DNA of 64,000 bases from Candidatus Iainarchaeum sp. (GTDB taxonomy: Archaea; Iainarchaeota; Iainarchaeia; Iainarchaeales; JAZDFD01): positions 23,822 to 87,821 of the forward strand of contig JAZDFD010000012.1 of assembly GCA_043808155.1 (NCBI GenBank). Direction: 5' to 3'. Below the pieces are notes generated by a model, which saw only the letters and a program-made list of their open reading frames with translations, was not told where the DNA came from and did no database searches. Positions 17,691 to 33,707 of this stretch are shown here, piece after piece; position 1 is the first letter of the stretch; every line of letters starts with the position of its first letter. The position numbers and the translations under genes are program-made.

Positions 17691-18056
17691 CTAAGTTTTT
17701 TTCAAGTATTCTTCCAAAATTTTTACTCTGCTACTTTTTGGTAATTTTTCTTTTTTTGAATAAAGCAGTTCAGCTTTTTTAAAGGGTTTTATTTCTTTTA
17801 ACTCGTTTTGAATTTGAATTGCTGTTTCTTCCAGGGCATTGATTCTTGAATAAATGTTTTCTTGCTGGTTTTTTAACCCGTTGATTTCTGCCAAAAAATC
17901 ATTGTTTTGTAAACTGCCTGTTTTTTGGTTTTTTAAAAGAGTTGTTTCAAAACCAGCGTTTGCCTTTTTATTCTTTTTTTCGGCAAACCAGAGCACAGCG
18001 TTTGCTGAGCCAAACAAGCCAATTAAAACTAACAAAAAAATGGTTATTGCAGACAT
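17691..18056 (-). CDS. Membrane-anchored coiled-coil hypothetical protein
   Basis: N-terminal TM, heptad region, G-rich SD upstream. Confidence 0.6.
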   Translation of the reverse strand: MSAITIFLLVLIGLFGSANAVLWFAEKKNKKANAGFETTLLKNQKTGSLQNNDFLAEINGLKNQQENIYSRINALEETAIQIQNELKEIKPFKKAELLYSKKEKLPKSSRVKILEEYLKKT

Positions 18057-18140
18057 AGTACCCCCCCTCCCGCAATATAATTAAAAGAGGCGAATCCTTT
18101 AAATAGCTTATTAATTTGTTAAGGTTAATGCATTATTTTT

Positions 18141-18239
18141 TTACTTTTTGCTCTTTCCATAATAGAATTCGGCAATGTATCTGTCCATTTGCTGCGCAAA
18201 AGCCTTAAACTTTTCCTGTAATCCCTTAACTGAACTCAA
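18141..18239 (-). CDS. 32-aa microprotein resembling the C-terminus of the GvpC-like protein
   Basis: TTG start 5 nt after an AGGTGA SD; MSSVKGLQEKFKAFAQQMDRYIAEFYYGKSKK. Confidence 0.55.
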   Translation of the reverse strand: MSSVKGLQEKFKAFAQQMDRYIAEFYYGKSKK

Positions 18240-18244
18240 TCCAC

Positions 18245-19015
18245 TCACCTGCGCCTTGCCAAAAACGTGTTAAATCTATCCATAATGGATGTCTTTTCCT
18301 CGTATTTTTTCCCAATTAATGTAGCGGCAATTTGTTTAAACGCATAAGCAGCCGGAGAAAAAGGGTAAAGCGTTACAACAGGCTGCCCAAAAGAAACAGA
18401 GCTCGCCACCAACGAGTCTTCAGGCACTTTCCCCAAAATTTTAATATTTCCCATGATCAAAACAATTTCCTCATCAGTTAGCTCGTGCTTGAATCTTCCG
18501 CTCCTGTTAATTATTACTCCCGCGATTTCTACTCCAAGATCTTGGGCAATCTGAATAGTTTTGCTCGCATCAGCCAACGAGGGCAATTCAGGGTTCAGGA
18601 CAATAATCGCATTTTCACTTGCCTTAAGAGCATTAATTACTTCAACCCCCAAGCCGGGAGCGCAGTCAATTAAAGTCAAATCGTTGTTTGCTTCAATTTT
18701 TTTAATCAGTTTCTTAAATTTTTTTGGTTCAAATCCCTGAAGGCTTTCAACGCCGAATGCAGCCGGAATCACTCTGACGCGTGGTTTCAATAAATAGGTT
18801 GCTTTCTCTATTCCGGCTTCTCCTCTAATTACGTCATTCAATGTTTTCACTTCTACCGGAATCTTTAAATGCAGTGCAATATTGGGCGTGGGCAAATTAG
18901 CATCAACAATAGTTATATCCTTTCCAAACATCCCTAATGCCACACCTAAATTGATTGTTGTGCAGGTTTTTCCAACACCGCCTTTTCCACTGCAGATTAA
19001 AAAACTTTTATTCAT
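18245..19015 (-). CDS. minD: MinD/ParA-family ATPase
   Basis: Deviant Walker A SGKGGVGKT, IDCAPGLG, GVIINR, C-terminal amphipathic SIMDRFNTFLARRR. Confidence 0.88.
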   Translation of the reverse strand: MNKSFLICSGKGGVGKTCTTINLGVALGMFGKDITIVDANLPTPNIALHLKIPVEVKTLNDVIRGEAGIEKATYLLKPRVRVIPAAFGVESLQGFEPKKFKKLIKKIEANNDLTLIDCAPGLGVEVINALKASENAIIVLNPELPSLADASKTIQIAQDLGVEIAGVIINRSGRFKHELTDEEIVLIMGNIKILGKVPEDSLVASSVSFGQPVVTLYPFSPAAYAFKQIAATLIGKKYEEKTSIMDRFNTFLARRR

Positions 19016-19639
19016 TCAAAATCTCCTAAGCTTTTTCAATTTTTCTTCTAATTCCTTAAATCTCTTTGCACTCCAATTAAATTCTTCTTCCTCTTTTGTT
19101 TTGGGGATTGAAATTTCAGTGTAATGCCCGATAATAGTAGCTGTTTCAACAGGCTTTTTTTCTTTCTCAACTTTTTCAATTTTTGGTTTTTCTTCCGGCA
19201 AAGATTCTTTTAAAATAGCGGCAACTAATTCTTTTTCTTTTTCAACAGGCTTAACAGCTTTCGTCTTAACCTTTGGCTTTAATTTTATTCTCTGGTTTTT
19301 AATTTTTTTCTTTTTTTCTCTTTTAACTTCTTTTTTTAATTCTGCTGCGACAGCTTTAACTTTTTCCTCAACAGCTTTAACTGGTTTTTCTATTTTCTCT
19401 TCAACCTTTTCAGTAACAGCAGCTATTTCTGGAATTTTTACATCAAATTTGGCTGCTCTTCTGTTCCATTTTGCTGTACGTTTTTCTGCCCAAGTATCCG
19501 TCCTTGCCTTTCTTCTGGCATGCCTAAAAGCATGTTTTTCTGCCCAAGTATCCGTCCTTGCCTTTCTTCTGGCATCCCTTGCAGCATCATTTCTCTCAAT
19601 TTTCGCATGATGCAAATCAATTTTTCTCTCCAAATCCAT
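19016..19639 (-). CDS. Highly charged low-complexity protein with an internal ARRKARTDTWAEK repeat
   Basis: Stop codon abuts the minD ATG; 42-bp perfect repeat at 19480-19521 and 19534-19575. Confidence 0.65.
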   Translation of the reverse strand: MDLERKIDLHHAKIERNDAARDARRKARTDTWAEKHAFRHARRKARTDTWAEKRTAKWNRRAAKFDVKIPEIAAVTEKVEEKIEKPVKAVEEKVKAVAAELKKEVKREKKKKIKNQRIKLKPKVKTKAVKPVEKEKELVAAILKESLPEEKPKIEKVEKEKKPVETATIIGHYTEISIPKTKEEEEFNWSAKRFKELEEKLKKLRRF

Positions 19640-19656
19640 ACATATCACGTGTAAAT

Positions 19657-19806
19657 TTATTCGGCTTCAAGTTTTTTGTCCCTTTCTTCAAGCCACTTGT
19701 CCCACTTTCTCTTCCACTTTGCGCTCTTGCCTGTAAAGCCACTTCTCCTTGCCCATTTAGCATTCCATCTGGCTTCCCTTCGAGAGGCTTTTTCCCCCAA
19801 TTCCAT
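19657..19806 (-). CDS. 49-aa Trp/Arg/Lys-rich microprotein
   Basis: ATG after a GGTGGA SD; MELGEKASRREARWNAKWARRSGFTGKSAKWKRKWDKWLEERDKKLEAE; fits the gap without overlaps. Confidence 0.55.
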   Translation of the reverse strand: MELGEKASRREARWNAKWARRSGFTGKSAKWKRKWDKWLEERDKKLEAE

Positions 19807-19829: not shown

Positions 19830-20117
19830 TTATTTTGTTTCTTCCTCACTTATTTCTGACGGGCCAGTATCGCATTTTCTCCTTACTGAAACCCGACTGT
19901 AACCCAAAAGATTATTGCTTGCATCAAAGGTCAACTTGTATTGGCCAATGAGGTTCTGTGTGTCAGGTATTGCTTCCCTTTCAAGCACTTCAACCAATGC
20001 AACTGATTTGTTGCCTTCTTTTGTTACGCTGATTACGCTTAACGGCTTTTTATCTATCAGCTCTTTAACGTTTTCCTTAGCCAGCTTAACGATTTCATTG
20101 AATTCATTTTTTGCCAT
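19830..20117 (-). CDS. gvpO: Gas vesicle protein GvpO
   Basis: VEVLEREAIPDTQNLIGQYKLTFD...LLGYSR signature; downstream of gvpN. Confidence 0.88.
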   Translation of the reverse strand: MAKNEFNEIVKLAKENVKELIDKKPLSVISVTKEGNKSVALVEVLEREAIPDTQNLIGQYKLTFDASNNLLGYSRVSVRRKCDTGPSEISEEETK

Positions 20118-20135: not shown

Positions 20136-20501
20136 TCAGGGGACATAAATGTAATGATCTCCCTTTTCCTTAACAACTTTTACTTTTTTATTTTTCCATT
20201 TACGAATGTTATCAACTAAATTGTACTCCTCCGGAGAATCTGTTAATTTGTAGTAAGTTAAAAATTTCGCAAGCTTCTCCCTTCTTAACTTGGCAATGTG
20301 ATTCGGGGTTTGCAATGAAAAAGTTCCGTCTGCTTTCAGGCAGGTGAAAAAAGTTTCCTTTACATTTTCACCGCCTTTTATTTTTGCTGTAACAACAATT
20401 GCATCAGTGTCATTGAATGTAAGGCATTTGGGCTTGCGTTTCCATAAATCAAATACTTTGTAAATCTTTGCATCTTGAATCACTGCATTTTTTTCTTCCA
20501 A
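20136..20501 (-). CDS. Hypothetical protein between gvpN and gvpO
   Basis: 121 aa ORF tightly packed in the operon. Confidence 0.65.
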   Translation of the reverse strand: MEEKNAVIQDAKIYKVFDLWKRKPKCLTFNDTDAIVVTAKIKGGENVKETFFTCLKADGTFSLQTPNHIAKLRREKLAKFLTYYKLTDSPEEYNLVDNIRKWKNKKVKVVKEKGDHYIYVP

Positions 20502-20507: not shown

Positions 20508-21572
20508 TCACCATTTGTGCAAGTTTAATTTATCGATTGCGGTTTTAATTAATGCCCCTTTCTGCTCCAAGTCCACTGAATCCTTTGTCTTTGAAGCAAT
20601 TGCATCAAAGCATAATTGCTCAAACAAATCCGTGCTCATGCCGTTTGTTACTCTAATTGCATGGGCAAGCATTATCGCTGGTCTTGTTCCTGGGGCTTCG
20701 GTTCCCTTCAGAGTTTCCCTCAAGTGCCTGACTACTCCAACTATTTTTTTAGCATCTGCGTCAGCAATTTTGGCGTGGGCCTTAACTATTGCAACTTCAG
20801 TTGCCTCGTCATAGTAGTCCATGTAAATTGCGCAAATTCTGTCCAGCAAAGCATCTTGCGGCTGGTGTACGCCGGCATACTCAGTATTGTTTGAGGTTAA
20901 AATCAGATTGAAATCAGGGTGCACTTTTATGTAGCGATCTTCACCAAACTTTGTTGGCAGTTCAAGAATTCCTTCTTCTAAAATCGAAAGCAAAATGTTA
21001 TTTGCCTCCGGCTTTGACCTGCTGAACTCATTATAAATCAGGGTATAGCCTTTCTGGCAGGCTAATGCCAAAGGGTTGTTAACCCACTGCGGCTCAATAA
21101 TGTCCTCACTTTTGTAAACATTGTGAATGTACTTATCCCTCAGGCTTTTCATTTCAATTCTTGAGTAGCCGCCAATTAACTCATGAGTTGTAAGCTGTTC
21201 ATCCCCGTTAATCCAAACTGCGGGCTTTCCCAGCTTTTCAGCAATGTGAATTGCCAAAGCAGTTTTTCCACAGCCTGTTGGACCAATAATATGCACGGGA
21301 TAGCCGGCCTTAATCCACAAAAGAGCCCTGTCCTCATATTTTTTAACTGCATCTGTTAAAACAAAATTTTTCGATTCTGGGGTTAAAAACTTTGCTTCAA
21401 CAATCTGGGTTTCCTCCAGCTTGTAAGTTTTCTCAATATCTCTTTCCCTTACTGCTGATTTTTTTCTTTCAACAGTCTGCTGTTTTTTTCTTTCCTCCTG
21501 CGTATGATGAACTGATTTCCCTCTAGTAGTTCTCGGATGTGTTTCTACATATGTCATTTCTTTAACCCCCAT
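20508..21572 (-). CDS. gvpN: Gas vesicle AAA+ ATPase GvpN
   Basis: GYPVHIIGPTGCGKT, TLIYNEFSRSKPEANNILL, EYAGVH..QDALLDR. Confidence 0.93.
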   Translation of the reverse strand: MGVKEMTYVETHPRTTRGKSVHHTQEERKKQQTVERKKSAVRERDIEKTYKLEETQIVEAKFLTPESKNFVLTDAVKKYEDRALLWIKAGYPVHIIGPTGCGKTALAIHIAEKLGKPAVWINGDEQLTTHELIGGYSRIEMKSLRDKYIHNVYKSEDIIEPQWVNNPLALACQKGYTLIYNEFSRSKPEANNILLSILEEGILELPTKFGEDRYIKVHPDFNLILTSNNTEYAGVHQPQDALLDRICAIYMDYYDEATEVAIVKAHAKIADADAKKIVGVVRHLRETLKGTEAPGTRPAIMLAHAIRVTNGMSTDLFEQLCFDAIASKTKDSVDLEQKGALIKTAIDKLNLHKW

Positions 21573-21758: not shown

Positions 21759-22130
21759 TTACTCTTTAACATGGCCGTGGTAGAACCGATCAATGAATTT
21801 CTCTGTGTCCTTTTCTAAAGCCCTTATGCTGGCATGCATTATGTTAACGCCTTTCTCTATTTCTCTAGTTTTTTCTCTTATGCCAGCTTTTACTGCATCG
21901 ATACCTTTTTCAATTTCCTTTACGGCTGCTGTGTTTTCTCGCTCCTGTGCTCTAATGCCAGCAACTACTTCCGAAGTGCCTTTCTCCATTGCCTTTACTG
22001 CTGCTTCATTTTCTCTTGCTTGCCTTTCAAATGATTCCAGATGTTTTTTTACACAAGTTACTTTCTCTTTTTCCCTATGTTTTACTCTGTGCTTTACCTT
22101 ATGTCTGGTTTTAAGTTTCTTTCTAGCCAT
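21759..22130 (-). CDS. GvpC-like helical repeat protein
   Basis: Lies between gvpA and gvpN; repeated amphipathic units RENxAAVKxxEKG...AGIR; sequence not recognisably canonical GvpC. Confidence 0.6.
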   Translation of the reverse strand: MARKKLKTRHKVKHRVKHREKEKVTCVKKHLESFERQARENEAAVKAMEKGTSEVVAGIRAQERENTAAVKEIEKGIDAVKAGIREKTREIEKGVNIMHASIRALEKDTEKFIDRFYHGHVKE

Positions 22131-22172: not shown

Positions 22173-22394
22173 TTACTTTGCCGGCGCTGCTATCGCTGCT
22201 TGCTCTACCTTTGTAATCTCTTCAGCGTAGTGCAGGAACGTATCAACACTTGCTACTACAACACGAGCTTCAATAGTTAAAATTTCAATTCCAACCAATG
22301 AAATTCTTGCCCATATGTCTACCACAATTCCTTTGTCTAAAATTCTGTCCAAAACTTCTGCTAAGCTTGAAACATCAGGTCCTTGATTTACCAT
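22173..22394 (-). CDS. gvpA: Major gas vesicle shell protein GvpA
   Basis: [52 protein letters not shown]; GGAGGTG SD before the ATG at 22394. Confidence 0.97.
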
Positions 22395-22483: not shown

Positions 22484-22498
22484 TGTCGGAATTCGACA
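22484..22498. promoter_or_regulatory. Palindromic operator TGTCG-N5-CGACA upstream of gvpA
   Basis: TGTCGGAATTCGACA; related copies at 24269, 24299, 32942 and 33490. Confidence 0.6.
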
Positions 22499-22697: not shown

Positions 22698-23849
22698 GTG
22701 AATGAAATGGCAAAAAGTTCAATTGTTAAATTAAAGCGCCGAAATAAAGGCATCGAAGCAGATGAATTTATTAGATTTTCCAAAAAAATTCCCTTCACAC
22801 AAAAGGAGCGAATTGTTTTTTATGGCTTAGTTAAATTTCCTGACTTAAACGACCAAAAATTGTCCAAAAAATTGAAAATTAAGAGGCCGACTGTTACAGC
22901 AATCAGAAATAAGTTGAAGAGGCAAAATTTTTATTTTCCTCGCGTTATCCCAAATTTTAAATTGCTGGACTATGAGTTAATGACATTTATTTGGGGTAAT
23001 TCAAGCTACTCTGTATCATTGGAAGAAAAAAGAAAAATTTCTGCAATTAAAAACGCTATGCAATCGCCTGAAGTAGTTTTTCAAATTATAACAGATAATG
23101 AATTTTTTTCTTTACTAATTTTTAAAAACTTTACAGAATTTAAAAAAATGGAGGATGGATTTGCACACATGTATAAAAAATATTCTTCCAGGGAACGCAA
23201 TGTTAACATTGCCCATTTTCCACTTGAAACAAGCGAAATACTTTCTTTATTTGATTATTCCTTATGTTTAAAAGATTTGTTAAAATTAAAGCCTGAAGAC
23301 AAAAAGACTGCAACAAAACCAAAAACATCAAAAGCAGTGCCATTAATGGAACTGAAGGAAAGAGAAAAGGCTGTTTTAGGCGTTCTAATCAAATACCCTG
23401 GATTAAATGATGCGGAGATTGCAGAGAAAGTTAGCATCACAAGGCAAACTGCTTCAAAAATTAAAGCAGGGTTAATAAAAGAAGGGGCAATTAAACTAAT
23501 TAATGAGCCGAATTTTAAAAAAATTGGCTGTGAGTTATTTGTTGCCACGCATACTAGATTTAATCCCCAAGTTGAACCAAATAAAAGAAAGTTGTTGCTG
23601 GAAAAGCCAAAAAGCAAATGCCCCACAATAATTGACGTGGAAAGCTGTACAGAAGAAATGTGTGGCGGCTTTTTCGAAGATTACCTAAGCTTTAAAATGA
23701 CTCAAGACGATTTGGAAAAAGTTTATAGGCAAAAGGATTTGTTGTTAAGAGAACCAGTAACCCAAATAATTCCAATGCAACAAATAAAATTTTACAAAAT
23801 AGATTTTGTTCCAATTACTGAAAAAGCCTTGAATATAAAAATACCATAA
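22698..23849 (+). CDS. Tandem Lrp/AsnC-like wHTH transcriptional regulator
   Basis: Two similar halves (FPDLNDQKLSKKLKIKRPTVTAIRNKL / YPGLNDAEIAEKVSITRQTASKIKAGL), each followed by PNFK. Confidence 0.75.
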   Translation: MNEMAKSSIVKLKRRNKGIEADEFIRFSKKIPFTQKERIVFYGLVKFPDLNDQKLSKKLKIKRPTVTAIRNKLKRQNFYFPRVIPNFKLLDYELMTFIWGNSSYSVSLEEKRKISAIKNAMQSPEVVFQIITDNEFFSLLIFKNFTEFKKMEDGFAHMYKKYSSRERNVNIAHFPLETSEILSLFDYSLCLKDLLKLKPEDKKTATKPKTSKAVPLMELKEREKAVLGVLIKYPGLNDAEIAEKVSITRQTASKIKAGLIKEGAIKLINEPNFKKIGCELFVATHTRFNPQVEPNKRKLLLEKPKSKCPTIIDVESCTEEMCGGFFEDYLSFKMTQDDLEKVYRQKDLLLREPVTQIIPMQQIKFYKIDFVPITEKALNIKIP

Positions 23850-25977: not shown

Positions 25978-25979
25978 AA

Positions 25980-27627: not shown

Positions 27628-27954
27628 ATGCCTAAATTAAGACCCAAAAGTTATCAATCGCACGGAGTAAAGCAAATTATTGAAAGAATGTTAGACAAGG
27701 GAGTAGTAATTAATGCAAAGATTAGAGCTTACCTTGTTGATTTTAAATTAATTGAGCTGGAAAGCATTGTTGTGCTTGCGTCGTTTGAAACTGCGGCAAA
27801 AATTGGCGTGTCTTTCCCAAAGGGTATTGATTTTGAAACAAAAGCATGGAAGGAGCTTTTAACAAAAGAAACCTGTCCTCAATGCAGGAAAAAGGTCTAT
27901 GAAGAAGAACTGCGATTAGGTTGTCCTTGGTGCAGCTATAAATTAGGAGGTTAG
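27628..27954 (+). CDS. GvpA/J/M-family protein with C-terminal zinc ribbon
   Basis: IIERMLDKGVVINA...LASFETAAK, then CPQC...CPWC. Confidence 0.82.
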   Translation: MPKLRPKSYQSHGVKQIIERMLDKGVVINAKIRAYLVDFKLIELESIVVLASFETAAKIGVSFPKGIDFETKAWKELLTKETCPQCRKKVYEEELRLGCPWCSYKLGG

Positions 27955-27961: not shown

Positions 27962-28372
27962 GTGAAGGAAAAAGAGAAATTGGAAGTAATTGAATTTGAA
28001 GATGAAGAGGCATTGCAGCCGGAAAAAAGCACCCAAACAGATTCAACTCTAGCAGCAGTGATTGACAGAGTATTGGAAAAGGGGCTGGTGATAAATGCAG
28101 ACATAACTGTAAGCGTTGCTGATACGGAACTGCTTGGGATAAAAATCAGGGCAGCACTGGCAAGTTTTGAGACAGCGGCAAAATACGGCTTGCAGTTTCC
28201 TCAGGGCACGAATATGGAAACAGCAGCATGGAAAGAGGCAATAGTTGAAAAGGAAGAATGTCCAAACTGCGGAAAGAAAGTGGAAACAGAACAGCTTTTG
28301 AATAAGTCATGCTATTGGTGCGGATGGCAGTCTGCTAAATCAAAAGCTTTGAAAAAAATTGAAGTTCGTTAA
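27962..28372 (+). CDS. gvpJ: GvpJ with C-terminal zinc ribbon
   Basis: LAAVIDRVLEKGLVINADITVSVADTELLGIKIRAALASFETAAKYGLQFP, then CPNC...CYWC. Confidence 0.88.
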   Translation: MKEKEKLEVIEFEDEEALQPEKSTQTDSTLAAVIDRVLEKGLVINADITVSVADTELLGIKIRAALASFETAAKYGLQFPQGTNMETAAWKEAIVEKEECPNCGKKVETEQLLNKSCYWCGWQSAKSKALKKIEVR

Positions 28373-28574
28373 AGCTGTAAAGGTTTTTGCAATGATTGAC
28401 CCAGTTAGCCAAACAATTCTAAGGAGGATTGAAGAAAGGGTAAAAGCAGAACCAAGAGAGGGGAATATTGCCTATAGAAAGCAGTGTCCAAGGTGTATGA
28501 AATGGCAAGTAAAAGAAGTTTTAATGAAAGAAGGTTGTTTTAAATGCGGATGGAAACAAAACAAAGCAAGGTAA
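28359..28574 (+). CDS. Stand-alone zinc-ribbon microprotein
   Basis: CPRC...GCFKCGW, same spacing as the GvpJ tails; likely start 28392. Confidence 0.65.
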   Translation: MKFVKAVKVFAMIDPVSQTILRRIEERVKAEPREGNIAYRKQCPRCMKWQVKEVLMKEGCFKCGWKQNKAR

Positions 28575-29092
28575 ATTTATTCATGAATGAATTGGATACC
28601 GAAAGCAGGTCAATTGTTTCATATCTTTTAATCAAAAAGCATGCGCGAATAAATGAGTTAAGTGATTTAATAAACGAAAATGATACTCTTACTATAATTA
28701 AAATAAAGGAAGCCATAAATCCGCTGGCTGAAAAAATTTTTGGAATGCAGATTCTTGTTTTTAAAGAAAGTGCAATTGATATAAGCGAAGGAAGGAAAGT
28801 ATTGTTTTCCTGGTGGCTGGAAAACGCGGAAGAATTAATTGAAGAGCAGAAAAAGGAATTAATTGATGTTTTTGACGAAAAAGATTATGTAAAAGTTGTA
28901 ATGGAACTGCCTGACAGCAAAAATATTAATGCAAAAATCAACGGAAACGAACTAATAATAACTGCAGAAAAATCAAATGAAAAAATTTGCAGAAAAATTC
29001 CCTTAAGTGCGGATGTGAAAAAAATAATTGGAAAAAGATACAACAACAGCGTGCTGGAAATTAAACTGGAGAAAGGGGCGGAAAATGTCTGA
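28544..29092 (+). CDS. Hsp20-domain protein with helical N-terminal domain
   Basis: IDVFDEKDYVKVVMELP...YNNSVLEIKL. Confidence 0.75.
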   Translation: MRMETKQSKVNLFMNELDTESRSIVSYLLIKKHARINELSDLINENDTLTIIKIKEAINPLAEKIFGMQILVFKESAIDISEGRKVLFSWWLENAEELIEEQKKELIDVFDEKDYVKVVMELPDSKNINAKINGNELIITAEKSNEKICRKIPLSADVKKIIGKRYNNSVLEIKLEKGAENV

Positions 29093-29150: not shown

Positions 29151-29495
29151 ATGGTTACAAAAATTGATTTGAAAAATGATGACAAAGAGAGCCTGAAAAA
29201 CGGCGTAATGGGATTGGTGCTTGCAATAGTTGAAGTGATAAGGGATGCCTTGCGCCTGCAGGCAATAAGGCGAATTGAAGGAGGCTCTCTTACAGAAGAA
29301 GAAGAGGAAAGATTGGGAAGAGCGTTGGAAGACTTTGATGAAGCAATTGAAAAAATGAAGGAAGAGCAAGGCCTGAATGAAGCAACGCAAAGTGTTAGAA
29401 ATGGTCTTGACGATTTGGCAAACGATTTAGTGAATAACTTTCTCAATGAGGAGCAAATAAAAGCTGCAGATAAGGGTGGAAAGCTTGGAAAATAA
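29151..29495 (+). CDS. gvpK: Gas vesicle protein GvpK
   Basis: GVMGLVLAIVEVIRDALRLQAIRRIEGGSLTEEEEERLGRAL. Confidence 0.92.
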   Translation: MVTKIDLKNDDKESLKNGVMGLVLAIVEVIRDALRLQAIRRIEGGSLTEEEEERLGRALEDFDEAIEKMKEEQGLNEATQSVRNGLDDLANDLVNNFLNEEQIKAADKGGKLGK

Positions 29496-30252
29496 AGAGC
29501 AGGGAAGGTATATTTACTGCGTAGCAAAAGGCAGTGAACAAACAGATTTGGGGAAAATAGGGATAGAAAACAGCGAAGTTTACACTATTCCAAGCAATGG
29601 ATTAATTGCAGTAGTGCATGACTGTGGAGCAAAAGCATACGATTCAAAAAATGAGGAAAAAGTGAAGGAATGGATTAAACAGCATGAAAATGTGATAGAG
29701 AAAACGCAGAAAAAATTTGAAACAATTGTTCCATTAAGTTTTAATGTAATAATAAAAGGGGAAAACGCAAGCAAGGAAGTGACTAATTGGCTGCAAACTG
29801 AAAAAGAGAGACTTGAAAGAAACCTGGAAAAAGTAAAGGGAAAAGAGGAATTCGGAGTGCAAATAACTTGGGACCCTATAAACATTGGAGAAAAATTAAG
29901 CAAAGAAAAAGAGGGAATCAAAAGTTTATTAGAAGAGATGGAAAAAGCCTCAAAGGGACAGGCCTACTTTATCAAACAAAAGATAAAGAAAGCATTGAAA
30001 CAGGAAATGGAAAAACTGGCTGACGAGAAATTCAAGCAATTTTATTCAGAAATCAAAAAGCACTGCTACCGGGTAAATATTGATAAAAACAAAAAAACCG
30101 AGGTAGAAAAAGAAATGCTAATGAACCTGAGCTGCCTTGTGGCAAAGGAAGAGGTTAAAGCCCTTGGAAAGGCGCTGGATAAAATAAACAAATTAGATGG
30201 ATTTAGTGTAAGGTTCACAGGTCCCTGGCCGCCTTACTCATTTGTAACTTAA
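29476..30252 (+). CDS. gvpL: GvpL (GvpL/GvpF family)
   Basis: GRYIYCVA, IVPLSF, GKEEFGV, FTGPWPPYSFV. Confidence 0.9.
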   Translation: MESLENKEQGRYIYCVAKGSEQTDLGKIGIENSEVYTIPSNGLIAVVHDCGAKAYDSKNEEKVKEWIKQHENVIEKTQKKFETIVPLSFNVIIKGENASKEVTNWLQTEKERLERNLEKVKGKEEFGVQITWDPINIGEKLSKEKEGIKSLLEEMEKASKGQAYFIKQKIKKALKQEMEKLADEKFKQFYSEIKKHCYRVNIDKNKKTEVEKEMLMNLSCLVAKEEVKALGKALDKINKLDGFSVRFTGPWPPYSFVT

Positions 30253-30259: not shown

Positions 30260-30574
30260 ATGAAAATGGAACCAACGAGAGAAAAAAATGCAACGCTTGT
30301 TGATGTGCTGGACAGGGCATTGAATAAAGGATTGTTAATTAATGCTGACTTAATTATTTCAGTTGCAGATATCCCGCTTATTGGGGTTAATTTGAAAGCA
30401 GCAATTGCAGGAATGGAGACAATGCTCGAATATGGCATGATGAAAGATTGGGATGAGGCATTGAGAGCAATTGCAAGGGAAGAAAGAGCTAGAATTGCAA
30501 AAAAAGAAAAAATTATTACGTCTTTAAGTGAGAAAAATGAACACAGCACTATATCTTTACTGCGCAGTAAATGA
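30260..30574 (+). CDS. gvpM: GvpM (GvpA/J/M family)
   Basis: MEPTR...TLVDVLDRALNKGLLINADLIISVADIPLIGVNLKAAIAGMETMLEYG...WDE. Confidence 0.85.
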   Translation: MKMEPTREKNATLVDVLDRALNKGLLINADLIISVADIPLIGVNLKAAIAGMETMLEYGMMKDWDEALRAIAREERARIAKKEKIITSLSEKNEHSTISLLRSK

Positions 30575-31250
30575 AAGAAGTGAAAAAAGCTTTGGCCACA
30601 TTGGCTTTCAGGAACAGGAGGTTTACGCTGTTCCGTATAAAACTATTAGTGTTGTTGTGCAGTCTTGCTCTGCTAAGGAATTAAGGAACAAGCGCCAAAC
30701 AGAGTTAGCTATAAATCACCAATATATAATAGATTTGGTAATGAGAGAATTTAATGAGGTAATTCCATTTAATGCTGCTATAGCGGTTAAAAACAAAAAA
30801 AATTTGAATAAAGTGCTTTCACTCAAATACAAAAAAATTAAATCAGAGTTGGCGGAAAAAAAAGACAAAAGGGAATACGGCATTCAAATATTTTATTCTC
30901 CTCTCTATTTAAAGGAAAAAGCAGGGGTTTTAACCAGTGTAAAGTCATTTGTTTTGCAGCAGGAGCAAAAAAGAAACCTGTCAATGCATAAAGAAGCCAA
31001 ATACAAAACCTTCCTGTTAAACGAGTTAAGGGAGTTAATTGATGAAATAAAAGTTAACTCCGCTTTCAGGGCATCAATTGAAGACTTAAGGGATAAAAGA
31101 ATTTTATTAAACTTAAGCTGTTTGGTGCATAAGGACAATGCAAAAAAACTTGAGGAAAAACTTGCTGAAATCAATAATAAAAAGGAATTCACCGTCAAAT
31201 TTAACGGCCCGTGGGCGCCATATTCTTTTACAGAAATACTTGAGGAATGA
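30528..31250 (+). CDS. Third GvpL/GvpF-family protein
   Basis: LYLYCAV, VIPF, EYGIQI, FNGPWAPYSF. Confidence 0.85.
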   Translation: MRKMNTALYLYCAVNERSEKSFGHIGFQEQEVYAVPYKTISVVVQSCSAKELRNKRQTELAINHQYIIDLVMREFNEVIPFNAAIAVKNKKNLNKVLSLKYKKIKSELAEKKDKREYGIQIFYSPLYLKEKAGVLTSVKSFVLQQEQKRNLSMHKEAKYKTFLLNELRELIDEIKVNSAFRASIEDLRDKRILLNLSCLVHKDNAKKLEEKLAEINNKKEFTVKFNGPWAPYSFTEILEE

Positions 31251-31253: not shown

Positions 31254-31940
31254 ATGAGGAAATTGTTGTATGTGCCTATTCTGCATTCCGCTGCAGACCT
31301 TGGCAGTATTGGGAAAGATGTTACAAGCAAGGGAGTTGAATTAGTTGGCCCAGAAAAATGGAAAAAGCATTTGCACACAATTGACTTGTTTTGGGATTCA
31401 ATTGAAAACTATTTTCATGAACTGAACGTAGAGAAATTTAAAATATTTCAAGACGGCTTTGTTGTCAGCGGAGAAACCAGTGAAAAAATTGTTAACGAAG
31501 TAGCAGCAAAGGGAAGCAGAAACTATGAAGTAATTAGAGACCTCATTAGCAGGGGCGCAAAAATTATGAAAACAGAGGAGCTTTCTTTAGTTAAAAGAGA
31601 GGTAGTTTACGTAAGCAAACTTGCAAAGGCAAAAAAGTTAACAGAAAAACTGACTGCTTATTTGCAATATAAATTAAACAAAGGAAACCTGTTAAATAAA
31701 AGGGATGAATTTATTGCAAAAACAATTAATGAATCCTTAAAAGAGGGGGAAACTGGCGTATTGTTCTTGGGGGCATTCCATAATGTAGTGCCTAAACTTG
31801 AGGGAGATATAAAAGTAATTGAACTGAAGGAAAAAGAAAAAGTTGTCAAATACCAGAAAATTTATTACTTCAAAACAAAAGAAAAGGAAACAGATGAGTT
31901 AAGCAAATACCTTGTGGCGCCAATAAAGGAAGTGTTTTAA
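31254..31940 (+). CDS. Conserved-looking hypothetical protein at the end of the gvp operon
   Basis: YVPILHS, FQDG, RDEFIA, FLGAFH resemble TraB/TIKI-like metal motifs. Confidence 0.6.
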   Translation: MRKLLYVPILHSAADLGSIGKDVTSKGVELVGPEKWKKHLHTIDLFWDSIENYFHELNVEKFKIFQDGFVVSGETSEKIVNEVAAKGSRNYEVIRDLISRGAKIMKTEELSLVKREVVYVSKLAKAKKLTEKLTAYLQYKLNKGNLLNKRDEFIAKTINESLKEGETGVLFLGAFHNVVPKLEGDIKVIELKEKEKVVKYQKIYYFKTKEKETDELSKYLVAPIKEVF

Positions 31941-31941
31941 A

Positions 31942-32373
31942 ATGAAAAACTTCAGGGAACTGCATGGAAAAAAGAGGAGAGGCAAAGTTTCAGCAAAGAG
32001 AAAAATGGAGCTAAGCGAAAAAAGATTGCTGGCAAATGCAAGAAAAGTGTTTCAAAAAATCAGGAGAAGAAAGAAAACAAAAGAACTGGCTTCACTGCTC
32101 CCTGATACTGCAATAAGAATTGATTTGGTTGGCTCGCCGGAAGTAAGCTTTATGCTGTTAATAAAAAATGGGAAAATTGGTTTTTCTACAAAGAGAACAG
32201 CTGCGAGGCTTGCAATAGGAATCCATAAAGAGCTGTTCTTAAAACTAATTAAAAATCCCCCTAAAACAGGGAACCTGAAAATTGCATTATTTGACAACAT
32301 TTTCCTAAGAAAGGGCCCGATAAGGGAATTTCGATGGCTAAAGGCAATCTTGGTGCACTTTTTGTTAGGGTAG
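31942..32373 (+). CDS. Basic hypothetical protein (possibly SCP2-like)
   Basis: Operon-coupled 143 aa ORF. Confidence 0.5.
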   Translation: MKNFRELHGKKRRGKVSAKRKMELSEKRLLANARKVFQKIRRRKKTKELASLLPDTAIRIDLVGSPEVSFMLLIKNGKIGFSTKRTAARLAIGIHKELFLKLIKNPPKTGNLKIALFDNIFLRKGPIREFRWLKAILVHFLLG

Positions 32374-32443
32374 AAAATAGACTTATATAAGTACCCCCTG
32401 AACTAAAAGAAAAATAAAAATTGAGGGTTTAATTGAATCTTAT

Positions 32444-32878
32444 TTATTCTCCGCCCTCTATTTCAGCACACTCGCCTTCAACGCACTCTTGCCCTTCAGC
32501 ACATTCCACTTCTGCACAAAGATCAACTGCAATACATTCTCCTTCAAGGCATTCCTCTCCTTCAAGGCATTCAACGCTTTCACAGGGATCCACAATCACT
32601 GTCTGGCATTCAACAGCACAGCACGCTTCGGTATCACTTGCTTCAATTAACTGCTCGCAGGTTTGCTCTTCTGCGCAAATGCTTCCGTCCTGCTCTTCAC
32701 AGGTTTTCAGTACACACTCGCCTTCAGCGCACTTTTGGTTTGCTTCGCAGGTAACGTCAGCGCAAGGGTCTGCTGGAGGAGTTTCCTCTTCTTTCACTGG
32801 TGGTATAGTCAACACAATTGCTGCCAATATTACAATGACTACAACGCCAATAATTATGTACAAAGTATTATTTTTCAA
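32444..32878 (-). CDS. Membrane-anchored Cys/Glu-rich repeat protein
   Basis: N-terminal TM; three DxCxxVxCxxxxxCxEGEC repeats; GGAGGT SD. Confidence 0.7.
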   Translation of the reverse strand: MKNNTLYIIIGVVVIVILAAIVLTIPPVKEEETPPADPCADVTCEANQKCAEGECVLKTCEEQDGSICAEEQTCEQLIEASDTEACCAVECQTVIVDPCESVECLEGEECLEGECIAVDLCAEVECAEGQECVEGECAEIEGGE

Positions 32879-33053
32879 ATTAATAACCTCCCTAAAGTTT
32901 GTTAATTAAAAAGTTTATTGTTTAATTAAAAGTGTTGGAGAAATCGGAGTTCGACTCAGAAAGCTAAAAGAAGGGATGGCAGGGGCAAGCCACTCACATA
33001 TGATAGCCCCTGCTAATAAAATGGCAACTTAGAAGAAAACCACTTTAAGCATT

Positions 33054-33434
33054 TCACTTTGCTCTTTCGGATGTCTTAGCTAAGGCGTAAACTGCTTTCA
33101 GTCCAACTACAATGACTGCTGGTGCAATGAATACTACAATATTTGCCAAGATTGCCTGCAAAATTGTTCCCACGCCAGCAACAACTGTGTCAATTACCAG
33201 CAAGTTAGCTGAACCTGCAACAATTAAGCCAACTGAAGCCACCATGAATGTTAAAACTTCCTTGTCTGAAATGTTCAGGTAGCCGACAATTAAACCCAGA
33301 ATCACTAAAACCAAAGCAATTCCGCCAGCATACCCGGCAACTAACCCGCCAACAATCCCTGCAAGTAAAGCTATAACTACACCAACAATGAAAGCATAGC
33401 CACCAATTTTTTGAGTAGATAACGGCAATTTCAT
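33054..33434 (-). CDS. Small four-TM membrane protein
   Basis: Hydrophobic helices, GYLNISDKE loop; GGAGGT SD before the ATG at 33434. Confidence 0.7.
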   Translation of the reverse strand: MKLPLSTQKIGGYAFIVGVVIALLAGIVGGLVAGYAGGIALVLVILGLIVGYLNISDKEVLTFMVASVGLIVAGSANLLVIDTVVAGVGTILQAILANIVVFIAPAVIVVGLKAVYALAKTSERAK

Positions 33435-33707
33435 GTACAATACCTCCATTCTAAAGAATAACAAAACTAATATTTAAACGAATCCCGCAAATCGAAAGCC
33501 GACACTGTTTTTAAAAGGAGGCGGCTTTTCAACAGGCTTTTAAGTACCAGATATTACCTGTAAACCGCTAAATTATACTCTTTCTTCGGTTTTAATCATC
33601 TATTCTCTTGTTACCACATTTTATAAATTTTTTACATAATATTTATTTTGTGGTAACAAATGGTTTTTGTGCTTAAGCGCGTAATCAGTCTAATTTAATA
33701 GTAATTA

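What the first reader, a model, noticed from the sequence alone, without database searches (positions are those of the whole stretch)
17691..33504. Complete gas-vesicle island in an apparent DPANN-type archaeon
Seen: gvpA, a GvpC-like gene, gvpN and gvpO leftward; regulator, gvpF, G, H, I-like, two J-like, K, L, M and a third L/F rightward; no obvious frameshifts. Established: this mirrors the divergent haloarchaeal gvpACNO / gvpDEFGHIJKLM layout, and the genes essential in Halobacterium (A, F, G, J, K, L, M, O) are all represented. Inference: the flanking housekeeping genes suggest a small-genome DPANN host (Iainarchaeota-like), for which I know of no characterised gas vesicles. The proteins are not acidic, so a non-halophile donor is likely. 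Buoyancy could serve dispersal or host-finding.
Basis: partly seen in the sequence, partly recalled or inferred. Interest (0 to 1): 0.9.

Follow-up and report, generated by a model that had tools for sequence, protein, structure and literature searches.

The report
Gas-vesicle gene island in DPANN archaeon
A tiny-genome archaeon of the Iainarchaeota (DPANN) carries an intact, inserted 17-kb set of genes for gas-filled flotation organelles, of a type that appears to circulate among DPANN archaea, a group not known to make them.

Summary
Window ~16.9-32.4 kb holds an intact gas-vesicle (gvp) cluster. Leftward lie gvpA, a repeat protein, gvpN, an OB-fold-like ORF and gvpO, then a charged protein and a second MinD paralogue. 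Rightward lie two wHTH regulators, gvpF, G, H-like, J1, J2, K, L, M, a third F/L and several unnamed ORFs.

The host is an Iainarchaeota/Diapherotrites MAG of 1.08 Mb, 88% complete. The contig is collinear on both sides of the island with a complete relative (G015). There the thermosome and the RIO kinase are 3.5 kb apart instead of about 18 kb. So the island is an insertion, not a chimera.

GvpN falls in a clade holding seven of the eight DPANN-labelled rows and no methanogen or Thermoplasmatota row. GvpA-family genes occur in 2 of 215, 8 of 401 and 2 of 61 genomes of three DPANN-labelled phyla. dN/dS against a syntenic 97-kb metagenome contig is 0.03-0.18 for the gvp genes.

Nine literature searches found no description of DPANN gas vesicles, although NCBI already names GvpN in DPANN MAGs. 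Verdict: a real new member of a known kind, not unique within DPANN. Expression and read support could not be tested.

The parts
16938..17681 (+). ComF-like phosphoribosyltransferase at the left edge of the block shared with L024
   Evidence: PF00156 25.9 bits, just under its cut-off. Syntenic in L024, where it is split into two ORFs. No match in the thermosome-RIO gap of G015.
17691..18056 (-). Small protein with an N-terminal hydrophobic helix and a coiled-coil-like tail, last gene of the leftward operon
   Evidence: No family match. 52% identical in L024. dN/dS 0.39.
18245..19015 (-). Island-borne archaeal MinD paralogue (ParA/MinD ATPase)
   Evidence: TIGR01969 222.7 bits against a cut-off of 201.75. 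It is a second copy; the canonical MinD on contig C1 scores 302.6 bits. 88% identical in L024.
19016..19648 (-). Highly charged K/R/E-rich protein abutting the MinD gene, with a conserved C-terminal stretch of about 45 aa; candidate adaptor
   Evidence: 30% K+R and 18.6% D+E. Tandem 54-nt repeat (D3). Aligned with the L024 homologue.
19830..20117 (-). gvpO
   Evidence: PF05800 60.6 bits. dN/dS 0.044.
20136..20501 (-). Conserved unnamed gvp-associated protein with an OB-fold-like model
   Evidence: Matched in 57 of 99 other loci. Model pLDDT 92.8. Best structural matches: PrgE at Z 7.9 and Foldseek E 5e-3. No Pfam or NCBIfam match.
20508..21572 (-). gvpN (AAA+ ATPase). The record form is 349 aa, which implies a start near 21557.
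   Evidence: TIGR02640 343.1 bits against 266.8. P0001 is 349 aa.
21759..22130 (-). Basic repeat protein in the position of gvpC (about 25-aa repeats, read from the sequence)
   Evidence: No GvpC or other family match. Matched in 7 of 99 loci. The L024 homologue is longer and matches twice.
22173..22394 (-). gvpA, the major shell protein (73 aa)
   Evidence: NF046092 129.8 bits against 112. Matches solved shell proteins 8gbs (E 1.9e-22) and 7r1c (E 1.4e-21). GGAGGTG lies before the ATG. dN/dS 0.027.
22484..22498 (.). Palindrome TGTCGAATTCCGACA upstream of gvpA; candidate operator
   Evidence: One of only 2 matches in the window, against 0.02 expected. TGTCG-N5-CGACA also occurs only twice in the whole 1.08-Mb genome.
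22698..23849 (+). Regulator with winged-helix domains (TrmB/MarR-type), divergent from gvpA
   Evidence: PF01978 34.1 bits. Only L024 has a homologue, at 70%.
24299..24313 (.). Second copy of the palindrome (TGTCGAAGCCCGACA), upstream of the rightward operon
   Evidence: L024 has TGTCGAATTTCGACA upstream of its homologous gene.
24446..25327 (+). Regulator with a RecA/KaiC/FlaH-like N-domain (no Walker A seen) and a PadR winged-helix C-domain; it occupies the gvpD/E position
   Evidence: PF03551 37.1 bits. Model pLDDT 69.9. Structural matches: FlaH 2.8e-5, KaiC 2e-4, PadR 3e-5. Matched in 37 of 99 loci, directly upstream of gvpF in L028 and L031.
25318..25977 (+). gvpF
   Evidence: PF06386 143.1 bits.
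25926..26282 (+). gvpG (the likely start is the internal ATG at 25980)
   Evidence: PF05120 31.8 bits against 30.6. NF045779 55.6 bits, below its cut-off of 85.
26285..26848 (+). GvpH-like Hsp20-domain protein
   Evidence: PF00011 32.4 bits. PF05455 GvpH 21.3 bits against 22, just under the cut-off.
26841..27218 (+). Very basic protein (pI 10.7) in the position of gvpI
   Evidence: No family match. 71% identical in L024.
27225..27611 (+). Charged protein of unknown family
   Evidence: No family match. 58% identical in L024.
27628..27954 (+). GvpJ-like paralogue 1 with a C-terminal CxxC...CxxC zinc ribbon
   Evidence: PF00741 25.6 bits. Zinc-ribbon tails occur in 43 of 48 loci with a hit.
27962..28372 (+). 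GvpJ-like paralogue 2 with a zinc ribbon
   Evidence: PF00741 55.5 bits. NF046090 106.5 bits, below its cut-off of 125.
28359..28574 (+). Small zinc-ribbon protein
   Evidence: CxxC...CxxC read in the sequence. Matched in 3 of 99 loci, counted as locus ids; two of the three (L007, L008) overlap on one G174 contig, the third is L024.
28544..29092 (+). Second Hsp20-domain protein
   Evidence: NF041800 54.2 bits, below its cut-off. Matched in 33 of 99 loci.
29151..29495 (+). gvpK
   Evidence: PF05121 68.4 bits.
29476..30252 (+). gvpL
   Evidence: PF06386 217.9 bits. NF045778 206.2 bits against 200.
30260..30574 (+). gvpM-like
   Evidence: PF00741 55.5 bits. NF046091 101 bits, below its cut-off of 109.
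30528..31250 (+). Third GvpF/L paralogue
   Evidence: PF06386 131.8 bits. Absent between gvpM and the next gene in G174.
31254..31940 (+). Conserved unknown protein, often found in gvp loci
   Evidence: Matched in 11 of 99 loci. Its neighbours by Atlas features are unnamed bacterial clusters.
31942..32373 (+). Very basic unknown protein (pI 11.6), last gene of the rightward operon
   Evidence: No family match. Matched in 1 of 99 loci.

Best explanation
The region is a working gas-vesicle (gvp) island of about 17 kb, inserted between the thermosome gene and a RIO-kinase gene in the chromosome of a small-genome Iainarchaeota (DPANN) archaeon.

Shown:
- The gene content, its intactness and its host.
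- The insertion relative to relatives of the same order.
- Purifying selection on the genes.
- Membership of a gvp lineage shared with other DPANN-labelled genomes.

Inferred from what is established for Halobacterium and for solved GvpA shells:
- GvpA polymerises into the ribbed, gas-permeable shell.
- The GvpJ/M paralogues with GvpF/L, G, K and O nucleate and assemble it.
- GvpN (AAA+) supports enlargement.
- The repeat protein stiffens the shell as GvpC does.
- The two Hsp20-domain proteins act as chaperones.

The two divergent operons are probably co-regulated. A palindrome, TGTCGAAnnCCGACA, occurs only at their two promoters in the whole genome. It is probably bound by the KaiC-like/PadR protein or the winged-helix protein encoded between the operons.

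The product would give a planktonic nano-sized cell lift in a water column. The island was acquired horizontally from within a DPANN-associated gvp pool. That pool nests among methanogen- and Thermoplasmatota-type archaeal clusters when the GvpN tree is rooted on haloarchaea.
For: Gene set: family matches above curated cut-offs for GvpA, N, O, K, G, L and F/L. GvpA aligns to the solved shell proteins 8gbs and 7r1c. All genes recalled as essential in Halobacterium (A, F, G, J, K, L, M, O) are represented.

Host: the thermosome's named neighbours are 16 of 23 Diapherotrites/Iainarchaeum. TrpRS neighbours with a phylum-level name are all DPANN-labelled; other named rows read only 'archaeon', one reads 'bacterium', and the best named one is Diapherotrites at 64%. 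The genome is 1.08 Mb, 88.5% complete and 0.36% contaminated.

Integrity and insertion:
- In G015, a single-contig relative of the same order, the window's genes from the HerA-like gene through Alba, IleRS and the thermosome are collinear. RIO kinase (54%) and o36430 (81%) follow the thermosome after 3.5 kb, against about 18 kb here.
- G090 has the homologues of 33708-34285 placed 5.5 kb after its thermosome.
- PF00741 was found in 0 of 40 sampled relatives of the order and in 2 of 215 genomes of the phylum, counting this genome.

Selection: against the fully syntenic L024 (52-90% amino-acid identity), dN/dS is 0.03-0.18 for 12 genes and 0.39 for one.

Lineage: in the GvpN tree of 70 rows, the window lies in a 43-row clade (SH-aLRT 98). 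That clade holds 7 of the 8 DPANN-labelled rows; the eighth, L010 (labelled Altiarchaeota), branches as its sister. It holds none of the 13 other named archaeal rows (12 methanogen, Thermoplasmatota or Hydrothermarchaeota, and one 'uncultured archaeon').

Regulation: the palindrome occurs twice in the window against 0.02 expected. It also occurs only twice in the whole genome, at both promoters.
Against: No transcript, protein or image exists.

Halo-specific GvpJ and GvpM models and the GvpH model score just below their cut-offs.

No GvpC, GvpD or GvpE family match was found.

No integrase, transposase or flanking tRNA marks the island. Only a weak 20-nt repeat brackets it.

Its tetranucleotide make-up is only mildly atypical: correlation 0.949 against a genome median of 0.990, with 2 of 55 windows more distant.

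Only 7 of the 43 rows in the 'DPANN' clade carry a name besides the window's. NCBI MAG labels are the submitters' own. The tree was a quick search and its root is assumed.

A second set of gvp-bearing genomes, from the phylum of the Woesearchaeota MAG, has a different GvpN clade at about 50% identity.

Whether enough vesicles fit into a nano-sized cell to lift it is unknown.
Confidence: 0.72

Rival explanations
1. The cluster is ancestral to Iainarchaeota or to DPANN and was inherited vertically, with loss in nearly all lineages, rather than gained horizontally.
For: GvpN of DPANN-labelled genomes from several phyla form one well-supported clade apart from methanogens. The island's GC content (0.33-0.39) equals that of the genome. 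No mobility genes were found.
Against: Only 2 of 215 genomes in the phylum have PF00741. Two relatives, G015 and G090, from two families of the order, show right-flank genes 3.5-5.5 kb after the thermosome; G091 shows o36430 homologues about 5 kb after it; and none of the four loci fetched (G012 included) shows any island gene. L024 carries the same block in a different neighbourhood. G174's GvpM, J2 and L are 74-88% identical to the window's, yet its thermosome is only 71% identical. A second, unrelated GvpN clade exists in the other phylum.
Confidence: 0.12
2. The island does not belong to this organism: the contig is chimeric or mis-binned, and the gvp genes come from a methanogen or another larger archaeon in the same sample.
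For: The genome is a 35-contig MAG. The island's tetranucleotide profile lies at the edge of the genome's range. Read support could not be examined.
Against: Both flanks on the same 87.8-kb contig are collinear with a complete Iainarchaeota-type relative. The named thermosome and TrpRS neighbours are DPANN-labelled. An independent 53,321-bp contig length is recorded for both a thermosome homologue (75%) and a TrpRS homologue (68%). The nearest GvpN sequences sit on long contigs labelled DPANN (102, 74 and 59 kb) and on a 97-kb contig of 37% GC. Methanogen-type loci have 45-50% GC and tetranucleotide correlations of 0.24-0.69 with this genome.
Confidence: 0.03
3. The genes are intact but make no buoyancy organelle in this host. 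They are silent cargo, or the vesicles serve another purpose, such as filling volume, changing the surface-to-volume ratio, or helping attachment to a host cell.
For: No expression data exist. DPANN cells are recalled to be 0.1-0.5 µm across, leaving little room for vesicles. No DPANN gas vesicles were found described.
Against: Strong purifying selection acts on 12 genes between two lineages. Accessory and regulatory genes and the operator are conserved in L024. Silent cargo would decay in a 1.1-Mb streamlined genome.
Confidence: 0.12

Closest known systems
Halobacterium salinarum gvpACNO / gvpDEFGHIJKLM clusters (locus L011 used here; gene roles recalled from the Pfeifer and DasSarma literature)
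   Same: Two divergent operons, with A-(C-like)-N-O on one side and F-G-H-(I-like)-J-K-L-M on the other. All eight genes recalled as essential are represented. GvpA passes the NCBIfam haloarchaeal GvpA model (129.8 bits against 112).
   Different: GvpN is only 47% identical. The proteins are not acidic. No GvpC, GvpD or GvpE family match was found. Extra genes are present: an OB-fold ORF between N and O, a KaiC-like/PadR regulator, two Hsp20 proteins, zinc-ribbon tails on GvpJ, a third F/L, and MinD with a charged partner.
Methanogen- and Thermoplasmatota-type archaeal gvp clusters (metagenome loci such as L028 and L031; NCBI-labelled Methanoperedens, Methanothrix, Methanocellales and Thermoplasmatota GvpN)
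   Same: They share the OB-fold ORF after gvpN (57 of 99 loci), the KaiC-like/PadR gene before gvpF (37 of 99) and the second Hsp20 gene (33 of 99). GvpJ zinc ribbons occur in 43 of 48 loci with a hit. GvpN is 53-59% identical.
   Different: In L028 and L031 the genes run in one direction (A-A-N-x-O-reg-F-G-...-M). Here and in L024 they form two divergent operons. Those loci have no winged-helix regulator like 22698-23849 and no MinD with a charged partner. Their GC content is higher.
gvp clusters in public MAGs labelled Micrarchaeota, Nanoarchaeota/Woesearchaeota, Aenigmarchaeota and Altiarchaeota (P0007, P0022, P0027, P0029, P0043, P0060, L009, L010)
   Same: They share the window's GvpN clade at 56-70% identity. 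L009 has the same N-OB-O order. The host genomes are small.
   Different: They belong to other phyla. Nothing beyond PGAP names was found written about them. The window's nearest relatives (78-88%) are unnamed metagenome proteins. The MinD linkage was seen only here and in L024.
Solved gas-vesicle shells, PDB 8gbs and 7r1c ('Gas vesicle structural protein')
   Same: GvpA aligns over residues 4-69 at E 1e-21 to 2e-22, with the central hydrophobic beta-hairpin region nearly identical.
   Different: No structure or vesicle from this organism exists. Vesicle width and strength cannot be read from the sequence.
ParA/MinD ATPase with a charged adaptor as a cargo-positioning pair (for example McdA/McdB of carboxysomes; recalled)
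   Same: A deviant-Walker-A MinD-family ATPase (SGKGGVGKT read; TIGR01969) is encoded right beside a highly charged, low-complexity protein inside an organelle gene cluster.
   Different: There is no sequence relation to McdB. Binding is not shown, and no cargo link has been tested. This is an analogy only.

Membership tests
Gas-vesicle (gvp) gene cluster | GvpA major shell protein | tested here: met
   PF00741 53.5 bits against 25. NF046092 129.8 bits against 112. PRK09371 127.4 bits against 100. Matches the solved shell proteins.
Gas-vesicle (gvp) gene cluster | GvpN AAA+ ATPase | tested here: met
   TIGR02640 equivalog, 343.1 bits against 266.8. Walker A GPTGCGKT is invariant in alignment A1.
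Gas-vesicle (gvp) gene cluster | GvpF/GvpL assembly proteins | tested here: met
   PF06386 at 143, 218 and 132 bits for three genes. NF045778 GvpL 206.2 bits against 200.
Gas-vesicle (gvp) gene cluster | Minor GvpA paralogues GvpJ and GvpM | tested here: inconclusive
   Three extra PF00741 genes score above the Pfam cut-off (25.6, 55.5 and 55.5 bits). The haloarchaeal J and M models are their best matches but fall below cut-off (106.5 against 125; 101 against 109).
Gas-vesicle (gvp) gene cluster | GvpK, GvpG and GvpO | tested here: met
   PF05121 68.4 bits against 25. PF05120 31.8 bits against 30.6 (marginal). PF05800 60.6 bits against 25.
Gas-vesicle (gvp) gene cluster | GvpC outer stiffening protein | tested here: not met
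   The 123-aa repeat protein at 21759-22130 matches no Pfam or NCBIfam family at E 0.01. It resembles GvpC only in position and repeat structure.
Gas-vesicle (gvp) gene cluster | GvpD/GvpE regulators of the haloarchaeal type | tested here: not met
   No such family was listed for any island ORF. The gene in that position has a KaiC/RecA-like and PadR fold.
Gas-vesicle (gvp) gene cluster | Gas-filled vesicles are actually formed | not testable with these tools
   Needs expression, flotation or pressure-collapse tests, or cryo-ET.
Iainarchaeota / Diapherotrites (DPANN) host | Housekeeping genes on the same contig group with the phylum | tested here: met
   Thermosome: 16 of 23 named neighbours are Diapherotrites/Iainarchaeum, and it is 63-74% identical to the listed matches among the 199 of 215 phylum genomes that have one. 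TrpRS: the best named neighbour is Diapherotrites. Gene order matches G015. No marker-gene tree was built.
Iainarchaeota / Diapherotrites (DPANN) host | Small, reduced genome | tested here: met
   1,077,490 bases at 88.47% completeness and 0.36% contamination. Listed phylum members are 0.3-1.5 Mb.
Horizontally acquired genomic island | Absent from the same site in relatives | tested here: met
   G015 and G090 show right-flank genes 3.5-5.5 kb after the thermosome. G091 and G012 show no gvp genes there either.
Horizontally acquired genomic island | Mobility hallmarks (integrase, tRNA target, direct repeats) | tested here: not met
   No integrase or transposase family was found. The only tRNA lies at 13729-13804, outside the island. 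Only an 80-85% 20-nt repeat occurs, at 16571, 16605 and 34469.
Horizontally acquired genomic island | Atypical composition | tested here: inconclusive
   Tetranucleotide correlation is 0.949 against a median of 0.990; 2 of 55 windows are more distant; GC is unchanged.
ParA/MinD cargo-positioning pair | MinD/ParA-family ATPase with a deviant Walker A | tested here: met
   TIGR01969 222.7 bits against 201.75. SGKGGVGKT is at the N-terminus. It is a second paralogue in the genome.
ParA/MinD cargo-positioning pair | The partner protein binds the ATPase and the cargo | not testable with these tools
   Only adjacency and charge are seen. Needs pull-down, two-hybrid or imaging.

The most novel reading that the evidence does not exclude
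Some DPANN archaea, including this Iainarchaeote, build real gas vesicles from a gvp island that moves among DPANN phyla. In this lineage the island brings its own MinD-type ATPase and a charged adaptor, which space or partition the vesicles in a nano-sized cell. On this reading, buoyancy is part of how such small-genome archaea hold their depth or meet hosts. It would be a positioning system for gas vesicles, and a lifestyle trait, that has not been described for the group.
Probability: 0.2. Interest if true: 0.8.

Novelty: new member of a known kind. Interest (0 to 1): 0.62.

Why it matters
Gas vesicles are known from cyanobacteria, haloarchaea, some methanogens and various bacteria. DPANN archaea are thought of as tiny cells, often attached to hosts, with stripped-down genomes.

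This genome keeps an intact, selected 17-kb organelle cluster within 1.1 Mb. Related clusters occur in about 1-3% of the genomes searched in three DPANN-labelled phyla. Together these suggest that a planktonic, depth-seeking way of life exists in the group, and that the genes spread laterally within it.

The island also offers compact, non-halophilic, low-GC archaeal gvp parts. Some are unstudied but conserved: an OB-fold protein, a KaiC-like/PadR regulator with a defined palindromic site, and zinc-ribbon GvpJ. These could be tested in heterologous gas-vesicle systems.

Tried and rejected
- **Sequencing runs:** 7 rows from 4 studies held parts of window 14871-24800, with shares of 0.09-0.33. 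They were labelled groundwater or biofilm metagenomes. No RNA holder was listed. None could be laid, so I draw no conclusion on habitat, strain or expression.
- **Read laying:** Junction coverage is therefore untested.
- **Complex prediction:** two copies of MinD, ATP and the charged protein gave 'no answer' (score 0.01 against a mark of 0.32). I draw no conclusion on binding.
- **Genome-contig scan:** the scan with the GvpN alignment was swamped by the Walker-A pattern. Of 600 stretches, only 15 were relatives, and 7 of those were unrelated bacterial AAA proteins. The window's own record is withheld there, so it did not name the host.
- **L024:** the rest of this contig is not held. Its host could not be placed, and its flank ORFs were uninformative.
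- **Sigma-70 promoter and terminator scan:** 53 promoter-like sites against 46.9 expected, and 15 terminator-like sites against 14.8. This is no more than chance, and the scan does not suit archaea.
- **Tandem repeat finder:** nothing beyond low-complexity runs. It did not pick up the protein-level repeats of the GvpC-like ORF.
- **ESM Atlas:** only unnamed clusters were returned. A 0.91 lead to a phage translation-repressor family was not supported by the fold searches.
- **Island MinD in five other gvp-bearing genomes:** only 33-37% identical paralogues in four of them and no match in the fifth (G336), so the MinD linkage is not general.
- **Not used:** the one search of protein representatives.

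Full report
**1. What is there**

ORF listing and family scans show an uninterrupted gas-vesicle cluster.

Minus strand, transcribed leftward:
- gvpA at 22173-22394. The ATG follows a GGAGGTG motif, giving a 73-aa protein. It passes PF00741 and two NCBIfam GvpA models.
- A basic 123-aa protein at 21759-22130, with repeats of about 25 aa and no family match.
- gvpN at 20508-21572 (TIGR02640 343 bits against a cut-off of 266.8).
- An unnamed ORF at 20136-20501.
- gvpO at 19830-20117.
- A K/R/E-rich 210-aa protein at 19016-19648.
- An archaeal MinD at 18245-19015 (TIGR01969 222.7 bits against 201.75).
- A small protein with a hydrophobic N-terminus at 17691-18056.

Plus strand, transcribed rightward:
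- A winged-helix regulator at 22698-23849.
- A PadR-type regulator at 24446-25327.
- gvpF, then gvpG.
- An Hsp20/GvpH-like gene.
- A very basic ORF in the gvpI position, then a charged ORF.
- Two GvpJ-like genes with C-terminal CxxC...CxxC motifs, then a small zinc-ribbon ORF.
- A second Hsp20-domain gene.
- gvpK, gvpL, a gvpM-like gene and a third GvpF/L.
- Two unnamed ORFs, ending at 32373.

The proteins are not acidic. GvpA aligns to the solved shell proteins 8gbs and 7r1c at E about 1e-22. This contig holds the only GvpA-family genes in the genome.

**2. Whose genome it is**

The window is part of an 87.8-kb contig in a 35-contig, 1,077,490-base assembly. The assembly has 35% GC, 88.5% completeness and 0.36% contamination.

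The thermosome lies 400 bases left of the island's first gene. Of its 120 best homologues listed, 23 carry an organism name. Fourteen are 'Candidatus Diapherotrites', 2 'Candidatus (I)ainarchaeum', 5 'archaeon', 1 Aenigmarchaeota and 1 Micrarchaeota.

TrpRS lies 28 kb right of the island. Its neighbours with a phylum-level name are all DPANN-labelled; other named rows read only 'archaeon', and one reads 'bacterium'. The best named one is Diapherotrites at 64%.

In the held GTDB set the genome is alone in its family and genus. Its phylum has 215 species genomes of 0.3-1.5 Mb. Of these, 199 have a thermosome match, and the listed matches are 63-74% identical.

I built no marker-gene tree.

**3. 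Is the island really in that chromosome?**

I fetched the thermosome neighbourhoods of four relatives of the same order and compared them with the window's proteins.

- **G015** (one contig, 1.24 Mb). The window's genes from the HerA-like gene through Alba, two unnamed genes, IleRS, o14096 and the thermosome are collinear, at 37-77% identity. Only 3.5 kb past the thermosome come the RIO kinase (54%; window 34693) and o36430 (81%). In the window these two anchors are about 18 kb apart.
- **G090.** Homologues of window 33708-34285 lie 5.5 kb past the thermosome.
- **G091.** It has o36430 homologues about 5 kb past the thermosome.
- **G012.** It shows the left flank only.

None of the four has a gvp gene there. 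So both flanks belong to one conserved Iainarchaeales neighbourhood. The stretch from about 16.6 kb to about 33.6 kb is an insertion relative to these relatives. This argues strongly against a chimeric contig.

Composition gives little signal. GC is 0.33-0.39, as elsewhere. The tetranucleotide correlation with the genome mean is 0.949 against a median of 0.990, and 2 of 55 15-kb windows are more distant.

No integrase, transposase or adjacent tRNA was found. A 20-nt repeat of 80-85% identity lies at 16571, 16605 and 34469. It may be chance.

**4. Relatives of the island**

The closest GvpN homologues are unnamed metagenome proteins at 78-88% identity. Next come NCBI-named 'GvpN' proteins:
- Micrarchaeota MAG, 70%, on a 102-kb contig.
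- Nanoarchaeota MAGs, 60-65%.
- Aenigmarchaeota MAG, 60%.
- Thermoplasmatota, Methanoperedens, Methanocellales, Methanothrix and others, 53-59%.

A genome scan added a Woesearchaeota MAG (59%), an Altiarchaeota-labelled MAG (56%) and haloarchaea (41-50%).

One metagenome contig of 97 kb, of which 21 kb is held as L024, carries the whole block in the same order. It runs from the ComF-like gene at 16938 to gvpL, at 52-90% amino-acid identity. It includes both regulators, MinD, the charged protein and every unnamed ORF. Beyond the ComF-like gene its neighbours differ from the window's.

The only other genome of the phylum with GvpA-family genes is G174, from a different family. It has a 4.2-kb contig with J1-J2-Zn-Hsp20-K-L-M-o31254 in the same order, but without the third F/L.

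dN/dS between the window and L024 is 0.027-0.175 for 12 genes and 0.39 for the small 17691 ORF. dS is 0.46-1.7, partly saturated. The genes have therefore been kept by selection in two lineages.

**5. GvpN tree**

The tree has 70 rows:
- The window.
- All of P0002-P0045.
- The 12 organism-named rows among P0046-P0120. The 63 rows without an organism name in that range were left out.
- 13 sequences from loci.

The search was a quick IQ-TREE run, rooted on five haloarchaeal rows.

- The window lies in a 43-row clade with SH-aLRT 98. That clade holds seven of the eight DPANN-labelled rows: Micrarchaeota, four Nanoarchaeota, Aenigmarchaeota and Woesearchaeota.
- The clade holds none of the 13 other named archaeal rows (12 methanogen, Thermoplasmatota or Hydrothermarchaeota, and one 'uncultured archaeon').
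- The Altiarchaeota-labelled row is the next branch out. Its branch is long, so its place is unsure.
- Four gvp-bearing genomes from the phylum of the Woesearchaeota MAG form a separate clade, at about 50% identity to the window.

With this root, the DPANN-type clade nests among methanogen- and Thermoplasmatota-type sequences.

Caveats apply. Most rows in the clade are unnamed. MAG labels are the submitters' own. The root is assumed.

**6. How common it is in DPANN**

PF00741 was found in:
- 0 of 40 sampled relatives of the order.
- 2 of 215 genomes of the phylum, counting this one.
- 8 of 401 sampled genomes of the phylum of the Woesearchaeota MAG.
- 2 of 61 genomes of the phylum of the Altiarchaeota-labelled MAG.

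Many of these genomes are incomplete, so these are minimum counts.

The island is therefore rare but not unique.

Literature searches:
- 'gas vesicle' with DPANN: 10 papers.
- 'gas vesicle' with Woesearchae-: 3 papers.
- 'gas vesicle' with Nanoarchaeota: 14 papers.
- 'gas vesicle' with Diapherotrites: 4 papers.
- 'gas vesicle' with Iainarchae-: 2 papers.
- 'buoyancy' with DPANN: 10 papers.
- Three mixed searches.

For most papers I saw only the listings and abstract openings.

I read passages in two papers. In PMC9258230 the terms refer to Halobacteria. In PMC8382752 gas vesicles refer to a Thiocapsa MAG.

The library lacks most subscription journals, and supplements were closed. A table entry somewhere cannot be excluded.

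**7. How it probably works**

The following roles are inferred from established knowledge of Halobacterium and cyanobacterial systems, which I recall rather than tested:
- GvpA forms the ribbed shell.
- The GvpJ/M paralogues with F/L, G, K and O act early in assembly.
- GvpN drives enlargement.
- A repeat protein on the outside stiffens the shell.

All of these have counterparts here. The repeat protein is GvpC-like only by position and repeat structure, since no family match was found.

*Regulation.* The gene in the gvpD/E position (24446-25327) was modelled from 23 homologues, with mean pLDDT 69.9 and domain cores of 76-91. Its N-domain resembles FlaH, KaiC, RAD51 and RecA (E 3e-5 to 4e-4). 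Its C-domain resembles PadR regulators (E 3e-5). I see no Walker A motif in the family consensus. Homologues lie in 37 of 99 other loci, and directly upstream of gvpF in L028 and L031.

The palindrome TGTCGAAnnCCGACA occurs twice in the window against 0.02 expected. TGTCG-N5-CGACA also occurs only twice in the whole genome. The two copies lie about 90 bases upstream of the gvpA ATG and about 130 bases upstream of the 24446 ATG. L024 has a one-mismatch copy before its homologous regulator gene.

I infer a shared operator for the two operons, bound by one of the two encoded regulators. This is untested.

*Unnamed conserved parts.* The ORF between gvpN and gvpO is matched in 57 of 99 loci. It gives a confident model (pLDDT 92.8) with an OB-fold-like architecture. 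Its best match is PrgE (Z 7.9, rmsd 2.7 Å over 91 residues; Foldseek E 5e-3). That is borderline by the tool's own note. A nucleic-acid- or protein-binding role is only a lead.

Zinc-ribbon tails on GvpJ-type proteins occur in 43 of 48 loci with a hit. They are a general trait of this archaeal gvp type, not of DPANN.

*MinD.* The genome has a canonical MinD on contig C1 (302.6 bits) as well as the island copy (222.4 bits). The island copy is 88% identical in L024. It is preceded, with no gap, by the charged protein, whose last 45 or so residues are conserved. By analogy with ParA/MinD-adaptor pairs that position other organelles (recalled), this pair may space or partition the vesicles. The linkage was not seen in five other gvp-bearing genomes: four had only 33-37% identical paralogues and G336 had no match.

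**8. Verdict**

The new points are:
- The island is an insertion at a defined syntenic site.
- It is under purifying selection.
- It belongs to a gvp lineage shared among DPANN-labelled genomes rather than coming straight from a methanogen.
- Such clusters are sporadic (about 1-3% of genomes) in three DPANN-labelled phyla.

It is a new member of a known kind of system, in a host group for which I found no published account. Function in vivo is inferred, not shown.

Noticed in passing
window 665-3259 (-): A HerA/DUF87-type ATPase gene is interrupted by an intein with a LAGLIDADG homing endonuclease (Intein_splicing 110 bits, LAGLIDADG_3 58.7 bits). The G015 homologue matched in two pieces at 67-68%. 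I did not check whether it also carries the intein.
   Followed up: no
window 13729-13804 (-): A tRNA-Ile gene with anticodon TAT (ARAGORN and Rfam). As I recall, most archaea read AUA with a modified CAU tRNA, and UAU is known from a few reduced lineages. I did not check whether the genome lacks the modifying enzyme.
   Followed up: no
window 18245-19648 (-): A second, divergent MinD paralogue and an abutting K/R/E-rich protein with a conserved C-terminal tail sit inside the gvp island. The pair is conserved in L024 (88% and 62%). Other gvp-bearing genomes searched lack a close copy.
   Followed up: partly
window 20136-20501 (-), and 57 of 99 other loci: A conserved, unnamed protein of about 120 aa lies between gvpN and gvpO in many non-halophilic archaeal gvp clusters. 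Its model is confident and OB-fold-like. It seems to lack a Pfam or NCBIfam family.
   Followed up: partly
window 22484-22498 and 24299-24313: The palindrome TGTCGAAnnCCGACA is unique in the genome to the two gvp promoter regions. It is also present before the regulator gene of L024.
   Followed up: partly
window 27628-28574 (+): Both GvpJ-like proteins carry C-terminal CxxC...CxxC zinc-ribbon tails, and a separate 71-aa zinc-ribbon ORF follows them. Such tails occur in 43 of 48 related loci with a hit.
   Followed up: partly
window 32433-32909: Two overlapping ORFs lie on opposite strands. The minus-strand one (32444-32878) has an N-terminal hydrophobic helix and acidic Cys-rich repeats, and looks like a real small surface protein. 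The plus-strand S/T/H-rich ORF is probably spurious.
   Followed up: partly
window 16571-16624 and 34469-34488: A 20-nt motif (TTnTTGATGGATaTgnaTGT, 80-85% identical copies) occurs twice just left of the island and once just right of it (family D10). It could be a remnant of an insertion site, a regulatory motif or chance.
   Followed up: no
L024 14121-14874: In the syntenic metagenome contig the ComF-like gene is split into two overlapping ORFs. This could be a frameshift or a sequencing error. In the window the gene is whole.
   Followed up: no
window 39770-42973 (+) and 56557-59424 (+): Two very large predicted surface or secreted proteins. One of 1067 aa combines a papain-like protease with NosD/beta-helix repeats. 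The other, of 955 aa, has a peptidase C25-like region.
   Followed up: no
window 33708-34285 (-) and 35362-35877 (+): Two small toxin-antitoxin-like pairs flank the right edge of the island. One is a zinc-ribbon/AbrB-like pair conserved beside the thermosome in G090. The other is a DUF7557 and ParE-family pair.
   Followed up: no
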